Both the position numbers and the translations under genes were made by a program. The notes beneath the pieces were generated by a model. It did not search any database. It was not told the DNA's origin and saw nothing but the letters and a program-made list of their open reading frames with translations. 15,727 bases of DNA from a virus. Shown here piece by piece: positions 7,650 through 15,095 of this stretch. The stretch is taken from UHGV virus genome UHGV-0344409; one strand, 5' to 3'. Every line of letters begins with the position of its first letter. Position 1 is the stretch's first letter.

Positions 7650-7958
7650 TTAAACGAAGCGGATCTGGAGTTTTTTCCCTGTAGCACGGGCGAATTTTTT
7701 CAGTGTGGCAAATGATGGGCCGCTTGTACCTGATGCAAGATTGCTTTCCATTCTGGTTATCGCAGTCGCTTTTGTTCCCATACGTTCAGCAACTTCAGCC
7801 TGGGTTAAGCCAGCTTCTTTTCGTGCTGCCAGCATTTCATCAAGTAGTGCGAATTCATCGGCGATGGCGTCGTATTCTGCTTTTACTGCGGGGTTAGACA
7901 ACATTTTTTCTACCATTTCATCGTGTGTCATGGTAGGTGGGGTACGTTTACCAGTCAT
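7650..7958 (-). CDS. HigA-like antitoxin (XRE-family HTH)
   Basis: 102 aa; strong AAGGAGG 6 nt upstream of the ATG at 7958; HTH LTQAEVAERMGTKATAITRME; start overlaps the upstream toxin gene by 11 nt. Confidence 0.75.
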   Translation of the reverse strand: MTGKRTPPTMTHDEMVEKMLSNPAVKAEYDAIADEFALLDEMLAARKEAGLTQAEVAERMGTKATAITRMESNLASGTSGPSFATLKKFARATGKKLQIRFV

Positions 7959-8277
7959 GCTTAACCTCCTTCATTCTGGTTTCAGCTTTTCTAAGCTCGG
8001 CAGGTGGAGTTTTTTGCGTTTTCTTTACAAAGCTATGCAACATAATGATTCGCTTTCCTTTTAGCGTGCAGTAAAAAACACGCCCTATGCCTTCCGAGCC
8101 CTTAAGGCGGATTTCAAACAAACCGTCGCCAAATGCCTCTGTATGCGGGGAACCAAGATTAGCTCCGTAAATACGCATTTTCTCCGTGTACCGAATGTAC
8201 CGGGCTTGTAAGGTCTCAGGAAGAGAAAGGATCTCAGCTTCAACCTCGTCACTGTAGTATTCGATAATGTAGTTCAT
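7948..8277 (-). CDS. HigB/RelE-family toxin (Gp49-like), toxin-first operon
   Basis: 109 aa from the ATG at 8277 (MNYIIEYYSDEVEAEILSLPE...RIIMLHSFVKKTQKTPPAEL), typical of HigB-like toxins; followed by the overlapping HTH antitoxin; candidate promoter TTGTCG-N17-TATATA on the minus strand (8329..8301). Confidence 0.7.
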   Translation of the reverse strand: MNYIIEYYSDEVEAEILSLPETLQARYIRYTEKMRIYGANLGSPHTEAFGDGLFEIRLKGSEGIGRVFYCTLKGKRIIMLHSFVKKTQKTPPAELRKAETRMKEVKHDW

Positions 8278-8349: not shown

Positions 8350-8411
8350 CTTCGCACGCCAGCAAAATCTGGCGTCGGGATTTGCACCCCGGATATTCAA
8401 CCGCGACAGAC

Positions 8412-8433
8412 ACACGCCGCGAGCGTGTTTTTT
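8412..8433 (+). terminator. intrinsic terminator-like hairpin in the leader upstream of the ORF6N gene
   Basis: ACACGC-cgcga-GCGTGT followed by TTTTT (8429-8433); about 75 nt downstream of the plus-strand promoter and 165 nt upstream of the ATG at 8598. Confidence 0.4.
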
Positions 8434-8597
8434 GTTGTCGTAAGCACACGCACATCTGAATTATGGTGGGGCGTATGGGGGAGCCGAAAGGCTCGCCGGT
8501 TGGTTGATCCGGTAGTGCAAACCCTGTACGTCTCACCACCCAAAGATTTGCACCTGACGGTGGTGATAGTTAAATTCATCAACCAGAGGGCGTTGTC

Positions 8598-9299
8598 ATG
8601 GCGACTCAAATTTCCGTTGAAACTCTTTCCCCAATTGCCTACAACCAGATCCCCGTAATTACTACAGAATTATTGGCGCAATTGTATGGCACTGAAACAG
8701 TCAATATAAAAATGAATTTTTCCCGTAACTCTGCGCGATTTGTACAGGGAAAACATTTCTTTAAGTTGGAAGGGAATGAACTACGTGAGTTTAAGCACAG
8801 ACTATCTTTAAGCGAGTCTGTTAGCCGCGAGGTAACAGAAAGTTACTCTGTGAAAATCGCCCGCAATGTTCGCTCCCTCATCCTCTGGACAGAACGCGGC
8901 GCAGCCCGTCACGCAAAAATGCTCGAAACCGATCAGGCGTGGGAAGTGTTCGAAAAACTGGAAGACTGCTATTTCAGCCAGGGAAAAACAGCACCAACCG
9001 AACAGCAGCCGCAGATTCAGCCACAATTCACAGCCGAGGAAATCATCCTCCTTTGCTACATGCAACTCTGGATGGAAAAAGCCCAGGACCTTAGCAAGCA
9101 GCTGTACCCCATAATGAAAGAGCTGAACTCCTCATACACGAACAAGCTGTATGACATTGCGTTTGAGACCATCTACATGGTGACGAAGAACAGAGACGCG
9201 CTACTAAGGGAGGTAACACGTCTCGACATGTCAAGTTCCGTTATCCAGCGGGCCATGCCAATGCTGAAAAGCCTGCGGGCAAGACAATTTGAATTCTGA
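8598..9299 (+). CDS. ORF6N-domain antirepressor-like protein
   Basis: 233 aa; AGAGGG RBS; N-terminal PVITTELLAQLYGTETVNIKMNFSRNSARFVQGKHFFKLEGNELREFK and ...WEVFEKLEDCYF fit the ORF6N (antirepressor N-terminal) pattern as recalled. Confidence 0.7.
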   Translation: MATQISVETLSPIAYNQIPVITTELLAQLYGTETVNIKMNFSRNSARFVQGKHFFKLEGNELREFKHRLSLSESVSREVTESYSVKIARNVRSLILWTERGAARHAKMLETDQAWEVFEKLEDCYFSQGKTAPTEQQPQIQPQFTAEEIILLCYMQLWMEKAQDLSKQLYPIMKELNSSYTNKLYDIAFETIYMVTKNRDALLREVTRLDMSSSVIQRAMPMLKSLRARQFEF

Positions 9300-10822: not shown

Positions 10823-11057
10823 TATTCAGCAGGTGCCTGAACGCATGGCTTTATTCAGGTCGTCTGGAAAAGCGCATGAGCAGCGTAATAGCGGAGTTCA
10901 TGGCGAAGAGTATATGAACAGATTATTCGAATGCTATATGAGACTGAAGCACGGAGATCGCTATGACCTGACACGTGATGCTGACGGTTTCTACTGCCGT
11001 GAAGTTGTGAAACGAATGTTTGAAGTGTGGTGTCATTGTAAAGGATGGGGGCTGTGA
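10815..11057 (+). CDS. hypothetical Cys/His-containing small protein (80 aa), coupled to the downstream Q-position gene
   Basis: ATG at 10815 overlaps the ninH stop; the N-terminus MRDIQ.V.ER recalls the start of some Q-family antiterminators; C-terminus ...FYCREVVKRMFEVWCHCKGW; stop TGA overlaps the next ATG (TGATG). Confidence 0.5.
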   Translation: MRDIQQVPERMALFRSSGKAHEQRNSGVHGEEYMNRLFECYMRLKHGDRYDLTRDADGFYCREVVKRMFEVWCHCKGWGL

Positions 11058-11671
11058 TGCGGCTAACCCCAGTATTCGGCATGGTTAACTTTATTAATGA
11101 TGCTCATTTCCGCCGCATATGGAGGCATCCGAAGAAAATCATTAACTCTCGTCAGAAAGCATGGGTTCACTACATGCTACAGGTATGGGGAAATGTTAAC
11201 GCTGGTGATGATTCTCCTTGTGGTGCAATTAACGTTATTGGGCGACTGATGATTCGCAGTCAGTGGAGCGATGACAAAGCTAAGCAGATTGAGTCTGTTG
11301 TCATGCGTCTGTATGAAGAAGACGGACTACGTGGAGATGAACTCCATCAGAAAGCCCGAGAACTGGTCATCCCTCAGTCATCGGCAGGTAATATCATTGC
11401 TCTCGCCAAAGAATCCGATGATGCTGCTTTCGTTGAACGTGTGATGGTTGAGACCTTTCATCGTGAAAGCCCTGTCCGTGATGTAGCTATTAGGCGATAT
11501 TGCAATCGCGACAGCACGCAAGATATCGCCAGGATGATTTCTCAGATAACAGGAGTTGATATTCAGTATTGCCGGAGGCGGGTCGTGTGGTGCGAGAGGG
11601 TCCTTGATTCAGAAATGTTTTATGCAATGAAGCGAGAATTGGAGAAAGAACTTCTAGTGATTGCTGGATGA
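11057..11671 (+). CDS. putative late-gene regulator at the Q position (family not confirmed)
   Basis: 204 aa, translationally coupled (TGATG at 11055-11059); sits after ninH and immediately before a promoter plus intrinsic terminator; size close to lambda Q. I do not recognise the sequence, so the assignment is positional. Confidence 0.4.
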   Translation: MRLTPVFGMVNFINDAHFRRIWRHPKKIINSRQKAWVHYMLQVWGNVNAGDDSPCGAINVIGRLMIRSQWSDDKAKQIESVVMRLYEEDGLRGDELHQKARELVIPQSSAGNIIALAKESDDAAFVERVMVETFHRESPVRDVAIRRYCNRDSTQDIARMISQITGVDIQYCRRRVVWCERVLDSEMFYAMKRELEKELLVIAG

Positions 11672-11695
11672 TGCAAAATATTTTTTGTAAATGCG

Positions 11696-11724
11696 TTGCT
11701 TTCGAGAAATGAAAGTAGTATGTT
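11696..11724 (+). promoter_or_regulatory. PR'-like late promoter candidate
   Basis: TTGCTT (11696-11701), 17 nt spacer, TATGTT (11719-11724), about 25 nt after the Q-position gene stop. Confidence 0.3.
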
Positions 11725-11831
11725 TTGTGTATGCTCGGAGCAAAAGCGCACTGAGAAGCGAAAGAGAAATCCTGATTTACCTCGGTCGTCGATAATATTT
11801 AGGATCGGCATACTGGCTAGATTAGGTAAAG

Positions 11832-11858
11832 GCCTCGGCAGAAATGTCGGGGCTTTTT
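11832..11858 (+). terminator. tR'-like intrinsic terminator
   Basis: GCCTCGGCA-gaaa-TGTCGGGGC (9-bp stem with two G-U pairs, GNRA loop) followed by TTTTTGTTT. Confidence 0.55.
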
Positions 11859-11990
11859 GTTTGCACAACAGGTAAGAGCATTGAACCCGCAGACCTCGTG
11901 GAATTGGTGAAAGGTGTGCGCAGTGCTCTTATCGTTGTGGTGAAGCTCAATGGCGAGCTAGCAGACAGGCGACTGTGAAAATACTAGTCA

Positions 11991-12062
11991 TGTAGCGGAT
12001 CGCCGCGCGTATTGTAATCGGCAGCGCACCGATGGGAGCTGGTTCGATTCCGGCCGCCACAA
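11991..12062 (+). other. tRNA-like element (possible tRNA pseudogene or remnant)
   Basis: Canonical T-arm GCTGG-TTCGATT-CCGGC (12038-12054); acceptor pairing TGTAGCG (11991-11997) with CGCCACA (12055-12061), one A-C mismatch; perfect anticodon-type stem ATCGG/CCGAT (12017-12033). D-arm and 7-nt loop CAGCGCA are non-canonical and CCA is not encoded. Confidence 0.3.
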
Positions 12063-12181
12063 TCCAAACTGAGCCGTAGCCTCTGGGTGTCCTGAATTCA
12101 TCAGTGATAGTTACGCTGCGGCCTTCTACATACGATTTTTGTGAAAAGCGGGTGGCAAGAGGCTGCGAAATTTTTAAATAC

Positions 12182-12399
12182 CTCACAATTCCACAGCTTG
12201 ATGATTGTCTGGCTGCCGGAGAATTTGTTAAAAATTGCATCGCGTGGTGAATCCCCCTCAGCGGCGGGGCATCTGGCAAAGTGTATGATCCAGCGAACAT
12301 GCAAATTCAGTAGCCAGGCTGAATTTACCGGGAGGCACCTGGCACCATGCGACAGACAGAAATTAGGCTATACTTCAGCCCCTCTCCGGAGGGGCTTTT
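12182..12399 (+). repeat. structured non-coding repeat unit, copy A (candidate sRNA), ending in an intrinsic terminator
   Basis: Ordered conserved blocks shared with copy B: CTCACAATTC, GATTGTCTGG, TTTGTTAAAAA, GGTGAATCCCCCT, GCGGnGGGGCAT, CACCGGGAGGCACC, CACCATGC. Hairpin AAATTCAG-tagccagg-CTGAATTT (12303-12326); terminator GCCCCTC-tccg-GAGGGGC-TTTT (12378-12399). Confidence 0.6.
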
Positions 12400-12589
12400 C
12401 TGTGCAGGATGTGTCACAGTTTCCTGAATTCTGAGTACTGTCCTGTTACTCAGGGTGCTATATTTTCTGACGTGATGAAAGTCTGCCGGAAGGCGGAACG
12501 TATCGGAAATGACCCAGTAGAGAAAACGTTGACTCAGATACCGATGCTGAGTTACCGGGAAACCGGCATCACATGACCGCTATCCTTCC

Positions 12590-12613
12590 AGGCTCGCTCC
12601 GGCGGGCCTTTTT
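12590..12613 (+). terminator. intrinsic terminator between the two repeat copies
   Basis: AGGCTCGC-tccg-GCGGGCCT followed by TTTT; same TCCG loop as the copy A and B terminators. Confidence 0.5.
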
Positions 12614-12650: not shown

Positions 12651-12882
12651 CTCACAATTCAGGCTGGCGATTATTGTCTGGCCAGCGGGAAGTTTGTTAA
12701 AAAAATATGGCATGGTGAATCCCCCTGTGCGGAGGGGCATATCAGCGACAGGTGTTTGGTCACACCCCTTATCCTTTCTGGTGCGGGTTCAGGTGCTGAT
12801 ACTGAACTCACCGGGAGGCACCCTGCACCATGCATGAACGGTACATAGCGCTACTCTCCAGCCCCTCTCCGGAGGGGCTTTC
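12651..12882 (+). repeat. structured non-coding repeat unit, copy B (candidate sRNA), ending in an intrinsic terminator
   Basis: Same block order as copy A; hairpin GGTTCAG-gtgctgata-CTGAACT (12786-12808) carries a compensatory A-T to G-C change relative to copy A; terminator GCCCCTC-tccg-GAGGGGC-TTTC (12861-12882). Confidence 0.6.
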
Positions 12883-12891
12883 TTGTTGGAT

Positions 12892-12921
12892 AAAAAAAAG
12901 CCCGCGCCGGGAAGCGCGGGT
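12892..12921 (-). terminator. minus-strand intrinsic terminator facing the copy B terminator
   Basis: A8 run (12892-12899) then GCCCGCGC-cgggaa-GCGCGGGT; on the minus strand this reads as a stem followed by U8. Confidence 0.45.
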
Positions 12922-13121
12922 GGCAAGGAATAAACAACAAAACGTGAAGTGATCAATTTTCAGCTGGCGAATAATACCTGATAGTAATCACTCTGCGCAA
13001 CTGTATGGTCTTTTTCGTATTGCGGGCTGTAGTCATCCTCCTGTTTCTGAACCCTTGTCCATGACTGACGTCAGCCCGCACCTTATCTTGATTGCATACA
13101 CTATCCCTGCCGGGAGGAATA

Positions 13122-15095
13122 ATGGCATTTAAACACTATGACGTGGTCAGGGCATCATCGCCGTCAGACCTCGCAGGAAAACTGACGCAAAAACTGAAGG
13201 AAGGCTGGCAACCCTATGGTAGTCCGATTATCTCAAACGCGGGTTATGGTGCTGAATTTATCCAGGCTATAGTCGCTGAAGGGGATATGACCTCTCCGGT
13301 AGTTTCACCGGGGGGAGATGGTACCCGGACTGTTGTTGTTGAACCAGAATATTACTTTGTCATTGCGCTGGCCGGACAGTCAAACGGCATGGCGTATGGT
13401 GAAGGCCTGCCGCTGCCGGAGACATATGACCGTCCGGACCCGCGTATTAAACAGCTGGCGCGTCGCAGTACGGTGACACCGGGTGGTGCGGCCTGTGCAT
13501 ATAACGACATCATTCCGGCGGACCACTGCCTGCATGATGTGCAGGATTTGAGCCGTTTTTCTCATCCGAAAGCCAGCGCAGAGCAGTATGGGTGTGTCGG
13601 ACAGGGATTGCATATTGCCAAAAAGCTGTTGCCCTTTATGCCGGAAAATGCGGGTATTTTGTTAGTGCCGTGCTGTCGTGGTGGCTCTGCGTTTACAGCC
13701 GGTGCTGACGGAACGTTCAGTGAAAGTTCAGGAGCGTCGGATAAATCTGAACGATGGGGCGTTGATAAGCCGTTGTATAAAGACCTGCTGACACGCACTC
13801 AGGCCGCGCTGAAGGCAAACCCCAAAAACATACTGCTTTGTGTTGTCTGGATGCAGGGCGAGTTTGATTTAAAACAGGGAGCGTACGCCAGTCAGCCCGC
13901 CATGTTTGATGCCATGGTGGAAAAATACCGTTCTGACCTGGCGGGAGTATCCGGTCAGTGCGCTGGTGCTTCTCCTTCTCTGGTGCCCTGGATTTGTGGT
14001 GACACGACGTACTACTGGAAGGAGACGTATTCAGCGCAATACGATGCCGTCTATGGCGCATACAAAACCAAAGCCGGTAAAAATATCTTCTTTGTGCCGT
14101 TTATGATGGATGACAATGGTCAGAAAGTCGGGACCAATGAACCGTCAGAAGACCCGGATATTCCGGCTATCGGGTATTATGGTTCCGGTGGACGAACGGA
14201 TGCGAAGAGCTGGACAACATCCGATCGTAAAACCCACTTTGGTTCATGGGCGCGTCGCGGAATTATTTCCGACCGTCTGGCAACAGCCATTCTTCTGCAT
14301 GTGGGCAGAGTGGCAGATTTTGTTTCCGGGAAAGTGACAAAAGCCGCGGTTTCTTCAGGCGGAGGCGTATCGCAACCAGCACAGGAGAGTGGCGATACTC
14401 AGCCTGAATCCGTTGTCCCGACAAAGATACAGTCAGTGCTGGCTTATGATGCGAATGCGGAAAATGCCGATCTGGCTTCGCAGGGCTGGACGCTGACAGA
14501 TGTCAAAAACACGCTGGTCAGTGACAGTGGTTCAGGTAAAAAAGCCCTTCGTCTTGAAAAACCAGAAAATGGTCTTGCACAGAAAAAGACCTGGAAAGTA
14601 TCGCACGCAATTGATGCCGGTAAGGGGAAGGAGCTGTTCGATAACGGCGGTGAAATCACGCTGCGCTTTAAAATCCCCGATGATGTATCTCTCAATGCTT
14701 CTGCAAATCAATATTCTGCGGGTATTTACTGGCGCGGTAGTGGATGGCCGGGAGCGGAATCAGAGGAGGGTTATATTGCGGCCTTCTATCTGCAGACTGA
14801 TAAAACAAACATCAATGTGATGTATCATGCAAACACCACATCACAGCGGCTTGGTAGTTATGGTCCGTTCGATCACGACTGGCACACGCTGACTTTCCGC
14901 TTCCCGGGTGGTGGCTCGCTGAACGTCACGCCGGTGCTTGATAATGCAGCAGGAAAACCGTTTACGCTGACCAGATGGACGAATGCAGCCTTTGAGGCCA
15001 ACGCGCTGGCAATTACGGATATTACCGGAAATGCGGCAACTTACCCTGTGCTGATTGAAAGTCTTACTGTTGGTGTGAATGCCGTAGCAGCATAA
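13122..15095 (+). CDS. nanS-p: NanS-p-like prophage sialate 9-O-acetylesterase (DUF1737 N-terminus plus SGNH/SASA esterase domain)
   Basis: 657 aa from the ATG at 13122 with GGGAGG 4 nt upstream (track starts at the TTG at 13092); N-terminal MAFKHYDVVRASSPSDLAGKLTQKLKEGWQPYGSPI; GQSN motif in IALAGQSNGMAYGEG; sits where Stx phages carry nanS-p downstream of stx. Confidence 0.8.
   Translation: MAFKHYDVVRASSPSDLAGKLTQKLKEGWQPYGSPIISNAGYGAEFIQAIVAEGDMTSPVVSPGGDGTRTVVVEPEYYFVIALAGQSNGMAYGEGLPLPETYDRPDPRIKQLARRSTVTPGGAACAYNDIIPADHCLHDVQDLSRFSHPKASAEQYGCVGQGLHIAKKLLPFMPENAGILLVPCCRGGSAFTAGADGTFSESSGASDKSERWGVDKPLYKDLLTRTQAALKANPKNILLCVVWMQGEFDLKQGAYASQPAMFDAMVEKYRSDLAGVSGQCAGASPSLVPWICGDTTYYWKETYSAQYDAVYGAYKTKAGKNIFFVPFMMDDNGQKVGTNEPSEDPDIPAIGYYGSGGRTDAKSWTTSDRKTHFGSWARRGIISDRLATAILLHVGRVADFVSGKVTKAAVSSGGGVSQPAQESGDTQPESVVPTKIQSVLAYDANAENADLASQGWTLTDVKNTLVSDSGSGKKALRLEKPENGLAQKKTWKVSHAIDAGKGKELFDNGGEITLRFKIPDDVSLNASANQYSAGIYWRGSGWPGAESEEGYIAAFYLQTDKTNINVMYHANTTSQRLGSYGPFDHDWHTLTFRFPGGGSLNVTPVLDNAAGKPFTLTRWTNAAFEANALAITDITGNAATYPVLIESLTVGVNAVAA

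What the first reader, a model, noticed from the sequence alone, without database searches (positions are those of the whole stretch)
11696..11858. PR'-like promoter followed about 125 nt later by a tR'-like terminator: a short constitutive late-leader RNA
TTGCTT-N17-TATGTT lies directly after the Q-position gene, and the strong terminator at 11832-11858 follows. This reproduces the PR'-tR' arrangement of lambdoid phages, which yields short abundant leader RNAs and the antitermination (qut) site. The stretch right after the terminator (TTTGCACAACAGG, 11859-11871) is CA-rich, but any sRNA-sponge role is pure speculation.
Basis: partly seen in the sequence, partly recalled or inferred. Interest (0 to 1): 0.5.

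Follow-up and report, generated by a model that had tools for sequence, protein, structure and literature searches.

The report
Phage late promoter, pause site, terminator
This is the ordinary late-gene switch of a lambda-like E. coli phage (a promoter, a pause site and a terminator just after the antiterminator gene), notable only because the antiterminator belongs to an unstudied family that is predicted to fold like the phage 21 Q protein.

Summary
TTGCTT-N17-TATGTT (11696-11724) and a 13-bp terminator hairpin with a U-tract (11828-11862) are present. The hexamers alone are at chance level; context and conservation carry the case.

- a -35/-10 pair;
- nearly invariant G-27, G-25 and A-23 in the spacer;
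- a -10-like TATGCT at -1..+5;
- a conserved +6..+27 block;
- an intrinsic terminator 54-224 nt downstream in 51 of those 52.

The sequence after the terminator, including the "CA-rich" TGCACAACAGG, is the conserved stretch that follows tR' in lambda and HK75. That fixes the terminator at the tR' position and removes the sponge idea. CACAACA is at chance frequency, lies past the U-tract, and no AgvB/AsxR core is present.

Best reading: a PR'-pause-tR' cassette of the phage 21 type that gives a leader RNA of about 130 nt. The leader has a covarying hairpin with an invariant loop, so an StxS-like sRNA role stays open but untested.

The parts
11057..11671 (+). Q-position gene (204 aa; an in-frame ATG at 11045 would give 208 aa). 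A divergent antiterminator predicted to have the Q21 fold.
11696..11701 (+). -35 hexamer TTGCTT of the late promoter (positions -35..-30)
   Evidence: A TTGnnn or AAGACA hexamer sits 16-18 nt upstream of the -10 in most of the 51 distinct relatives; a few score only 1-2 of 6.
11704..11708 (+). GAGAA in the spacer (-27..-23): candidate Q-binding element half-site
   Evidence: G-27 (92%), G-25 (94%) and A-23 (100%) are conserved over 51 distinct loci of both promoter types. It resembles the phage 21 QBE half-site TGAGCA, which also lies between -35 and -10 (PMC6606751). The assignment is an inference.
11719..11724 (+). -10 hexamer TATGTT (-12..-7)
   Evidence: TATATT, TACATT, CATATT or similar sits 5-6 nt before the TATGCT anchor in relatives; T-7 100%, T-8 92%.
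11730..11738 (+). -10-like element TATGCT (-1..+5) plus CGG: candidate sigma-dependent pause element. Predicted start at A11731.
   Evidence: Of 51 distinct loci, TANGCT occurs in 45 and CATGCT or CATGAT in 6. A+1, G+3, T+5 and G+8 are invariant. It occupies the same place as the lambda PR' -10-like element, which I recall as AACGAT at +1..+6.
11739..11757 (+). Conserved initially transcribed block (+9..+27), AGCAAAAGCGCACTGAGAA. C+17/G+18 (11747/11748) together with G+8 fit the G-10 Y-1 G+1 pause consensus.
   Evidence: A4: C+17 and A+20 invariant, G+18 nearly so. Homology with Salmonella phages stops at about +33. In L011, L013 and L018 the same block is joined to a lambda 6S-type body at about +30.
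11771..11826 (+). Leader hairpin 2, with invariant apical sequence GATAATATTTAG (11791-11802)
   Evidence: MFE fold. RNAalifold on 9 distinct leaders found 4 pairs of this helix with compensatory changes. The loop is identical in 27 viral contigs.
11828..11862 (+). tR'-equivalent intrinsic terminator (13-bp stem, loop GAAA, U5-G-U3)
   Evidence: It lies at the same position as lambda tR' and the annotated HK75 Tr' relative to the conserved downstream sequence. 51 of 52 relatives with the anchor have a terminator at +54..+224.
11863..12167 (+). Post-tR' late leader shared with lambda, HK75, HK629 and P22-like phages. It starts with the boundary sequence GCACAACAGGTAAGAGCATTGA and includes a degenerate tRNA-like element at 11936-12062.
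   Evidence: 92.7% identity to HK75 from the end of its Tr'. Three-way alignment with lambda. 'bsq4; boundary sequence' is annotated at this spot in CUS-3. Rfam tRNA 26.5 bits, below the gathering score of 29.

Best explanation
The region is the late-gene regulatory cassette of a lambdoid phage (PhiR5_2). A sigma-70 promoter (-35 at 11696, -10 at 11719) starts transcription at about A11731. Sigma region 2 would then re-bind the -10-like TATGCT at -1..+5 and hold the polymerase at a promoter-proximal pause, probably near +17. Without the product of the upstream gene, the polymerase terminates at the hairpin 11828-11862 and releases a leader RNA of about 130 nt. When the upstream protein is made, it would bind a site in the promoter spacer (candidate GAGAA at -27..-23), load onto the paused polymerase and make it terminator-resistant. 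That protein is a divergent relative of phage 21 Q. The modified polymerase would read through tR' and the three further terminators, into the esterase, lysis and structural genes.

Shown here: the sequence elements, their conservation, the Q21-like predicted fold, and the positional equivalence to lambda tR'.

Inferred: the start site, the pause, the Q-binding site, constitutive activity, and antitermination itself.
For: 1. Identity and layout. The window is 100% identical to phage PhiR5_2 and 18 E. coli genomes hold at least 80% of the 1.5-kb query at 99.9-100% identity. The gene order is N, cI, cro, cII, O, nin, RusA, NinH, then this gene, later holin, lysozyme, Rz and terminase, all on the + strand.

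3. Family-wide conservation. 52 of 56 loci with this gene carry a TATGCTCGG-like anchor, 47-80 nt after the stop codon in nearly all. The loci come from Escherichia, Salmonella, Cronobacter, Serratia, Pantoea, Erwinia, Photorhabdus, Xenorhabdus and Proteus, down to about 44% identity. A -10 lies 5-6 nt before the anchor and, in most loci, a -35 hexamer 16-18 nt further up. 51 of the 52 have an intrinsic terminator at +54..+224.

4. Modularity. Homology with relatives that share the Q type runs through the gene and promoter to about +30 and then breaks. In L011, L013 and L018 the leader body is the lambda 6S type. In five Salmonella-type relatives (L004, L005, L008-L010) a different terminator comes at about +65.

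5. The terminator sits exactly where lambda tR' and the annotated HK75 Tr' sit relative to the conserved TGCACAACAGGTAAGAGCATTGA.

6. Three more + strand terminators (12377, 12590, 12860) lie before the late genes, so processive antitermination is needed.

7. The layout matches the published phage 21 cassette: a QBE of TGAGCA repeats between -35 and -10, and a -10-like element in the initially transcribed region (PMC6606751, 10.1101/651190).
Against: There are no transcript data: start site, pause, termination efficiency and Q dependence are all untested. The window's own hexamers are weak (3/6 and 4/6) and of a quality expected by chance. The protein matches none of the three Pfam Q families, and a profile comparison with 933W Q is not significant, so the link to Q rests on a predicted structure of moderate confidence (pLDDT 74) and on position. 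The Q-binding site is not identified with certainty. The conserved +19..+27 block has no explanation within the known Q model.
Confidence: 0.85

Rival explanations
1. In addition to its cis role, the tR'-terminated leader of about 130 nt is a trans-acting regulatory RNA of the lysogen, as StxS is in Stx phages. It would act through the invariant apical loop GAUAAUAUUUAG.
For: Hairpin 2 keeps pairing through 4 compensatory pair changes between the window type and the Cronobacter type, while its 12-nt apex is identical in 27 viral contigs. StxS shows that PR'-tR' transcripts can be Hfq-dependent sRNAs, and lambda 6S RNA is abundant (PMC7547250).
Against: Only two or three independent lineages carry this leader body, so the covariation rests on few events. 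Other members of the same Q family have unrelated leader bodies, so the body is not needed for the switch. No complementary site exists in the window. No Rfam family matches. The invariant apex could instead be a DNA-level element, because it is the -10 of a promoter-like site on the - strand.
Confidence: 0.18
2. The upstream protein is a sigma-region-4-like activator of a phage-specific promoter rather than an antiterminator. The promoter would then be silent without it, and no constitutive leader RNA would be made.
Confidence: 0.07
3. The hairpin merely ends the early rightward (Q) operon, and the hexamers upstream are a chance match.
For: Hexamer pairs of this quality occur at chance frequency. 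The terminator follows a gene and would also end its mRNA.
Against: A chance match would not be conserved with fixed spacing to an invariant TATGCTCGG in 52 loci across many genera. A Q-type-specific module would also not stop at about +30.
Confidence: 0.04
4. The CA-rich stretch after the terminator is a GcvB-type sRNA sponge.
For: CACAACA (11864-11870) equals the GcvB R1 target consensus used by AgvB (PMC4104026).
Against: The 7-mer occurs at chance frequency (2 against 2.6 expected). It lies after the U-tract, so it is absent from the terminated RNA. It reads CATAACA in a close relative. It is part of the conserved boundary sequence also present after lambda tR'. No AgvB/AsxR 3' core is in the window.
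Confidence: 0.02

Closest known systems
Phage 21 late cassette (Q21, PR'21 with TGAGCA-repeat QBE, -10-like pause element, terminator)
   Different: No detectable sequence similarity: no Pfam hit, and hhalign with 933W Q gives probability 0.1. The protein is about 50 residues longer. Only one clear half-site is seen. A further conserved block at +19..+27 has no counterpart that I know of.
Lambda PR' - 6S RNA - tR'
   Same: Same position in the genome. The -10-like element is at about +1. The pause-consensus letters fall at +16 to +18. The sequence after the terminator is homologous from TGCACAACAGG for about 300 nt. A short terminated leader RNA is produced.
   Different: The Q protein family is unrelated. 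The leader body and terminator stem are not homologous to lambda 6S in this window, although they are in relatives L011, L013 and L018. The leader is about 130 nt rather than 194 nt. A moron of about 3.6 kb is inserted before the lysis genes.
StxS sRNA of Stx phages (the PR'-tR' transcript processed to a 74-nt Hfq-binding sRNA)
   Same: It is likewise a terminated late-promoter leader in a lambdoid prophage, upstream of a moron site and a nanS-p-like esterase.
   Different: No homology was seen and no Rfam hit. Hfq binding, processing and targets are unknown here.
HK75 annotated pR'/Tr'
   Same: The mosaic joint is the same: window 11854-12167 is 92.7% identical to HK75 starting at the 3' end of its annotated Tr'.
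   Different: HK75 has a different Q, promoter and terminator stem, and a much shorter leader.

Membership tests
Lambdoid Q-dependent late regulatory cassette | Antiterminator gene immediately upstream of the promoter | tested here: met
   A 204-aa ORF ends 24 nt before the -35. Its predicted fold is Q21-like, and it matches phrog_753 'Q-like'.
Lambdoid Q-dependent late regulatory cassette | Sigma-70 type promoter directly after the gene | tested here: met
   TTGCTT-17-TATGTT is present. The equivalent pair is conserved in most of the 51 distinct loci, often closer to consensus. Promoter activity itself was not testable.
Lambdoid Q-dependent late regulatory cassette | -10-like sigma-dependent pause element in the initially transcribed region | tested here: met
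   TATGCT lies at -1..+5. TANGCT occurs in 45 of 51 distinct loci and CATGCT or CATGAT in 6. Pausing itself was not testable.
Lambdoid Q-dependent late regulatory cassette | Q-binding element between -35 and -10 | tested here: inconclusive
   G-27, G-25 and A-23 are nearly invariant, and the motif resembles the 21 half-site. No clear second subsite was found and there are no binding data.
Lambdoid Q-dependent late regulatory cassette | Intrinsic terminator between the promoter and the late genes | tested here: met
   The position equals lambda tR'. Late genes lie downstream on the same strand.
Lambdoid Q-dependent late regulatory cassette | Q-dependent read-through of the terminator | not testable with these tools
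   Needs in vitro transcription or reporter assays.
Q21/933W protein family (Pfam model) | Match to the family HMM or significant profile similarity | tested here: not met
   No Pfam family at E <= 0.01. hhalign of the family profile against 933W Q gives probability 0.12, E 0.49. The PDB sequence search does not find Q21.
Q21 structural fold | Three-dimensional similarity to solved Q21 | tested here: met
[quoted passage not shown] | Match to PF03589 or the Q82 model | tested here: not met
AgvB/AsxR anti-sRNAs | Conserved 3' core of about 42 nt (GTATCTCATGC.ATTGCCCGAACCCA.TCGGGC) with a variable 5' seed | tested here: not met
   0 matches with up to 3 mismatches, and 0 matches to TTGCCCGAACCC with up to 2 mismatches.
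StxS-like late-leader sRNA | Hfq binding and trans targets | not testable with these tools
   Only the position is shared. No Rfam match in 11600-12250 apart from a sub-threshold tRNA hit.

The most novel reading that the evidence does not exclude
The terminated leader of about 130 nt is a trans-acting regulatory RNA of the lysogen, StxS-like, that acts through the invariant GAUAAUAUUUAG loop on a covarying hairpin. Alternatively, the conserved +6..+27 block, which can form a 5' hairpin UGCUCGG/CUGAGCA, is an RNA-level part of Q loading that is absent from the lambda, 21 and 82 models.
Probability: 0.15. Interest if true: 0.55.

Novelty: new member of a known kind. Interest (0 to 1): 0.3.

Why it matters
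Q-dependent antitermination is a textbook system described as having three unrelated protein families. This cassette belongs to a fourth sequence family: at least 214 clusters at 90% identity across Enterobacterales, with no Pfam or NCBIfam model. The family is predicted to share the Q21 fold. It has a very well conserved promoter-proximal site, consisting of G-N-G-N-A in the spacer, TATGCTCGG at the start, and a pause-consensus C/G at +17/+18.

That gives a ready-made comparative set for asking which parts of a Q-utilisation site are general and which are Q-specific. It also allows such genes to be annotated. For the phage itself it is simply the expected late switch.

Tried and rejected
- **Rfam.** At gathering and at permissive thresholds there was no family for the leader. 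The only nearby hit is a sub-threshold tRNA-like element downstream.
- **RNAalifold on +1..+37 across 52 loci.** No consensus structure was found. A 4-bp GCUC/GAGC complement is 90% paired but has only two compensatory cells, which is too thin to call.
- **Search for the complement of the invariant loop in the window.** Only the loop itself was found.
- **AgvB/AsxR core search.** Nothing was found.
- **CACAACA.** It occurs at chance frequency.
- **Sequence searches of the PDB with the protein and with its family profile.** Only ERp29 came up, at weak E-values that are probably spurious; Q21 did not appear.
- **hhalign against 933W Q.** Not significant.
- **TATGCT as the true -10.** Rejected, because no -35-like hexamer lies 16-18 nt upstream of it in either promoter type, whereas TATGTT/TATATT has one.
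- **A promoter downstream of the GAGC repeats.** Rejected, because nothing is conserved beyond about +30.
- **Small ORFs in the leader** (the 59-aa TTG ORF on the + strand and the 82-aa ORF on the - strand). They have no family hits, the deposited record does not annotate them, and the variation pattern is RNA-like.
- **Literature search for this Q family.** Nothing specific was found, within four searches.

Full report
**What is there**

The window is 100% identical over the 1.5-kb test stretch to Escherichia phage PhiR5_2 (PV340546.1), and 18 complete E. coli genomes hold at least 80% of that stretch at 99.9-100% identity. The deposited annotation shows a lambdoid order on the + strand: N, cI, cro, cII, O, DnaC-like, nin genes, RusA, NinH and two 'hypothetical' genes. 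After a gap come an esterase-like ORF, holin S, lysozyme R, Rz and terminase. The finding lies just after the second hypothetical gene (window 11057-11671).

TTGCTT is at 11696-11701, the spacer is 17 nt, and TATGTT is at 11719-11724. The terminator has a stem 11832-11840 / 11845-11853 with loop GAAA. A-U and G-U pairs extend it to 13 bp (11828-11857), and it is followed by TTTTTGTTTG. Hairpin dG is -17.5 kcal/mol. The 151-nt stretch folds with z = -3.3 against shuffles.

The simple consensus scan missed both elements for rule reasons: the -35 matches 3 of 6, and part of the T-run is absorbed in the stem. On their own the hexamers mean nothing, because TTG-N20-TANNNT occurs 7 times in the window against 8.2 expected.

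**The upstream gene**

The 204-aa product matches no Pfam or NCBIfam model, and therefore none of the three recognised Q families. It does match PHROG 753, 'anti-termination protein Q-like' (E 3.5e-68), a name that appears to have been given by position. It has at least 214 relatives at E <= 0.001 in the large protein collection, nearly all unnamed.

An AlphaFold2 model built from a 29-sequence alignment has pLDDT 74.
- **Foldseek against the PDB.** The top nine hits are all phage 21 Q. Their probability is 0.99-1.00, with TM-scores of 0.43-0.48 normalised to the query and 0.59-0.66 normalised to the target. Everything below them has TM < 0.3, apart from one further Q21 chain at rank 16.

Q21 is itself reported to resemble ECF sigma region 4 (10.1101/651190), so this ranking is what a true Q21 relative should give. 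A profile comparison with 933W Q is not significant. The relation is therefore visible only at the level of predicted structure.

**Comparative anatomy of the intergenic region**

I collected the region after this gene from 6 phage or E. coli records and 50 species genomes. In 52 of these 56 loci, down to about 44% protein identity, a TATGCTCGG-like anchor is present, 47-80 nt after the stop codon in nearly all. The genera include Escherichia, Salmonella, Cronobacter, Citrobacter, Serratia, Pantoea, Erwinia, Rosenbergiella, Photorhabdus, Xenorhabdus and Proteus.

I set +1 at the A of TATGCT (window 11731). With that choice the window's hexamers fall exactly at -35..-30 and -12..-7. Over 51 distinct sequences:
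- T-7 is invariant and T-8 is 92% conserved.
- A -10 (TATATT, TACATT, CATATT, TATGTT) ends 5-6 nt before the anchor.
- In most loci a -35 hexamer lies 16-18 nt upstream: TTGnnn in enteric, Photorhabdus and Proteus types, AAGACA in Pantoea and Erwinia types.
- Within the otherwise different spacers, G-27 (92%), G-25 (94%) and A-23 (100%) are conserved. They read GAGAA in the window (11704-11708).
- The anchor hexamer is TANGCT in 45 sequences and CATGCT or CATGAT in 6.
- A+1, G+3, T+5, G+8, C+17 and A+20 are invariant; C+4, C+6 and G+18 are nearly so.

The strongest conservation is therefore not in the promoter hexamers. It is in a -10-like element at the transcript start and in the first 27 or so transcribed positions.

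**Terminators in relatives**

A simple search finds a hairpin plus T-run 54-224 nt after +1 in 45 of the 52 loci (median 104). A fold-based check finds one in 6 of the other 7. The stems are of several unrelated kinds.

In five Salmonella-type relatives the terminator comes at about +65. In the window, in two E. coli prophage types and in Cronobacter phage ENT47670 it comes at about +126, after an extra hairpin. A terminator shortly after the promoter is thus a constant of the family, while its sequence is not.

**Module boundaries**

Homology between the window and Salmonella phages UPF_BP1 and 29485 runs through the gene and promoter to window 11763 (+33) and stops there. In L011, L013 and L018 the family's promoter and +1..+30 block are joined to a body homologous to lambda 6S RNA.

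In L066 a very divergent Q-like domain (24% identity, fused to an HNH-like N-terminal part) is combined with a different spacer, but with the same sequence from about -12 onward. These natural swaps fit a Q-utilisation site that extends from the promoter to about +30, with Q specificity in the spacer and an exchangeable leader body.

**Position of the terminator**

Window 11854-12167 is 92.7% identical to phage HK75, starting at the last bases of HK75's annotated Tr'. A three-way alignment shows that lambda tR', HK75 Tr' and the window's terminator have unrelated stems. Each is followed by the same TGCACAACAGGTAAGAGCATTGA and about 300 nt of shared late leader. CUS-3 annotates this spot as 'bsq4; boundary sequence'.

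This has two consequences.
- The terminator is at the tR' position in the strict sense.

CACAACA occurs twice in the window against 2.6 expected. It lies after the U-tract and reads CATAACA in a close relative. The published AgvB/AsxR core (supplement of PMC4104026) is absent from the window. The sponge idea can be dropped.

**Mechanism**

The published phage 21 cassette has TGAGCA direct repeats between -35 and -10 as the Q-binding element. It also has a -10-like sequence in the initially transcribed region that re-binds sigma region 2 and pauses the polymerase. Q then forms a ring in the RNA exit channel that prevents hairpin formation (PMC6606751; 10.1101/651190). The window has the same parts in the same order.

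From my own knowledge:
- At lambda PR' the -10-like element is at +1..+6 and the pause is at +16/17.
- A second, elemental pause signal (G-10 Y-1 G+1) sets the pause position.
- A G two bases after a -10 hexamer contacts sigma region 1.2.

On that basis TATGCT-CGG would be the sigma-dependent pause element with a favourable discriminator. G+8 with C+17/G+18 fits a pause at +17. These are inferences.

The block +19..+27 (AACTGAGC in most relatives, CACTGAGAA in the window) is unexplained. In the window's clade it can pair with +2..+8 (UGCUCGG/CUGAGCA). Across the family no consensus structure is predicted, and only two compensatory cells exist.

Downstream, three more + strand terminators (12377-12396, 12590-12609, 12860-12879) precede the esterase and lysis genes. 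Late expression therefore needs a processive antiterminator.

**The leader RNA itself**

With +1 at 11731 and release at 11858-11862, the RNA would be about 128-132 nt. Nine distinct leaders of this body type, drawn from 27 viral contigs, give a consensus of three hairpins. The middle hairpin (+42..+96, window 11771-11826) keeps pairing through four pairs with changes on both sides, between the window type and the Cronobacter type. Its apex GAUAAUAUUUAG (11791-11802) is invariant.

This is suggestive of a selected RNA structure, and StxS is a precedent for a functional PR'-tR' RNA (PMC7547250). Four points weigh against it:
- Only two or three lineages are involved.
- Other members of the Q family have unrelated bodies.
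- No target was found in the window.
- The invariant apex is also the -10 of a weak promoter-like site on the - strand.

I rate a trans-acting role at under 0.2.

**Verdict**

It is the expected late switch of a lambdoid phage and is already known in kind. The new content is threefold: its antiterminator belongs to an unmodelled sequence family with a predicted Q21 fold, that family has a strikingly conserved promoter-proximal site, and the CA-rich stretch is a known boundary sequence rather than a sponge.

Noticed in passing
window 8356-8433, 8459-8543, 8598-9299: isrK (75.4 bits) and a C4 antisense RNA (74.4 bits) lie in tandem directly upstream of an antirepressor ORF. This is a P1/P7 immI-like, Gifsy-1 IsrK-like module inside the nin region of a lambdoid phage.
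   Followed up: no
window 12212-12405, 12681-12890, 12590-12609, 12901-12920 (- strand): Two STnc100 copies (139 and 130 bits) each end in a + strand terminator, and a third + terminator lies between them. A strong - strand terminator converges on the second copy. This is where Tree et al. place convergent anti-sRNAs, but no AgvB/AsxR core is present.
   Followed up: partly
window 11936-12062: A degenerate tRNA-like element: acceptor, D and T arms with a 74-nt insert. Rfam tRNA scores 26.5 bits, below the gathering score of 29, and ARAGORN finds nothing. HK75 shares it, lambda has it partly deleted, and one Salmonella phage record annotates it as tRNA-Ser.
   Followed up: partly
window 11792-11819 (- strand): A promoter-like site TAGCCA-16-TATTAT lies on the - strand. 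Its -10 is the complement of the invariant leader loop GATAATATTTAG. It would give an RNA antisense to the leader and the 3' end of the Q-like gene, loosely like lambda paQ. Sites of this quality are below chance frequency in the window.
   Followed up: no
L066 1324-2451 (- strand): A 375-aa ORF in an IMG/VR contig fuses an HNH-like N-terminal part to a Q-like C-terminal half (24% identity to the window protein). It sits upstream of the same leader but has a different promoter spacer.
   Followed up: partly
window 13092-15095: A 667-aa ORF with DUF1737, SASA sialate O-acetylesterase and DUF6645 domains (nanS-p type). It lies at the moron site where Stx phages carry the same gene after stx. The deposited record splits it into two CDS.
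   Followed up: no
window 7650-8210 (- strand): The deposited record annotates a HigB/HigA toxin-antitoxin pair inside the nin region.
   Followed up: no
Q-like protein residues 28-97 (window 11138-11347): The family profile hits the C-terminal domain of ERp29 in the PDB sequence search at E 4.5e-4. The same stretch has low confidence in the model. This is unexplained and probably coincidental.
   Followed up: no
L021, L026-L048, L055-L056, upstream of the -35: Pantoea, Erwinia and Rosenbergiella relatives carry a conserved near-palindrome, TAGCACGAATAGCTA, just upstream of or overlapping the -35 of their late promoter. It may be an operator that would make those promoters regulated rather than constitutive.
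   Followed up: no
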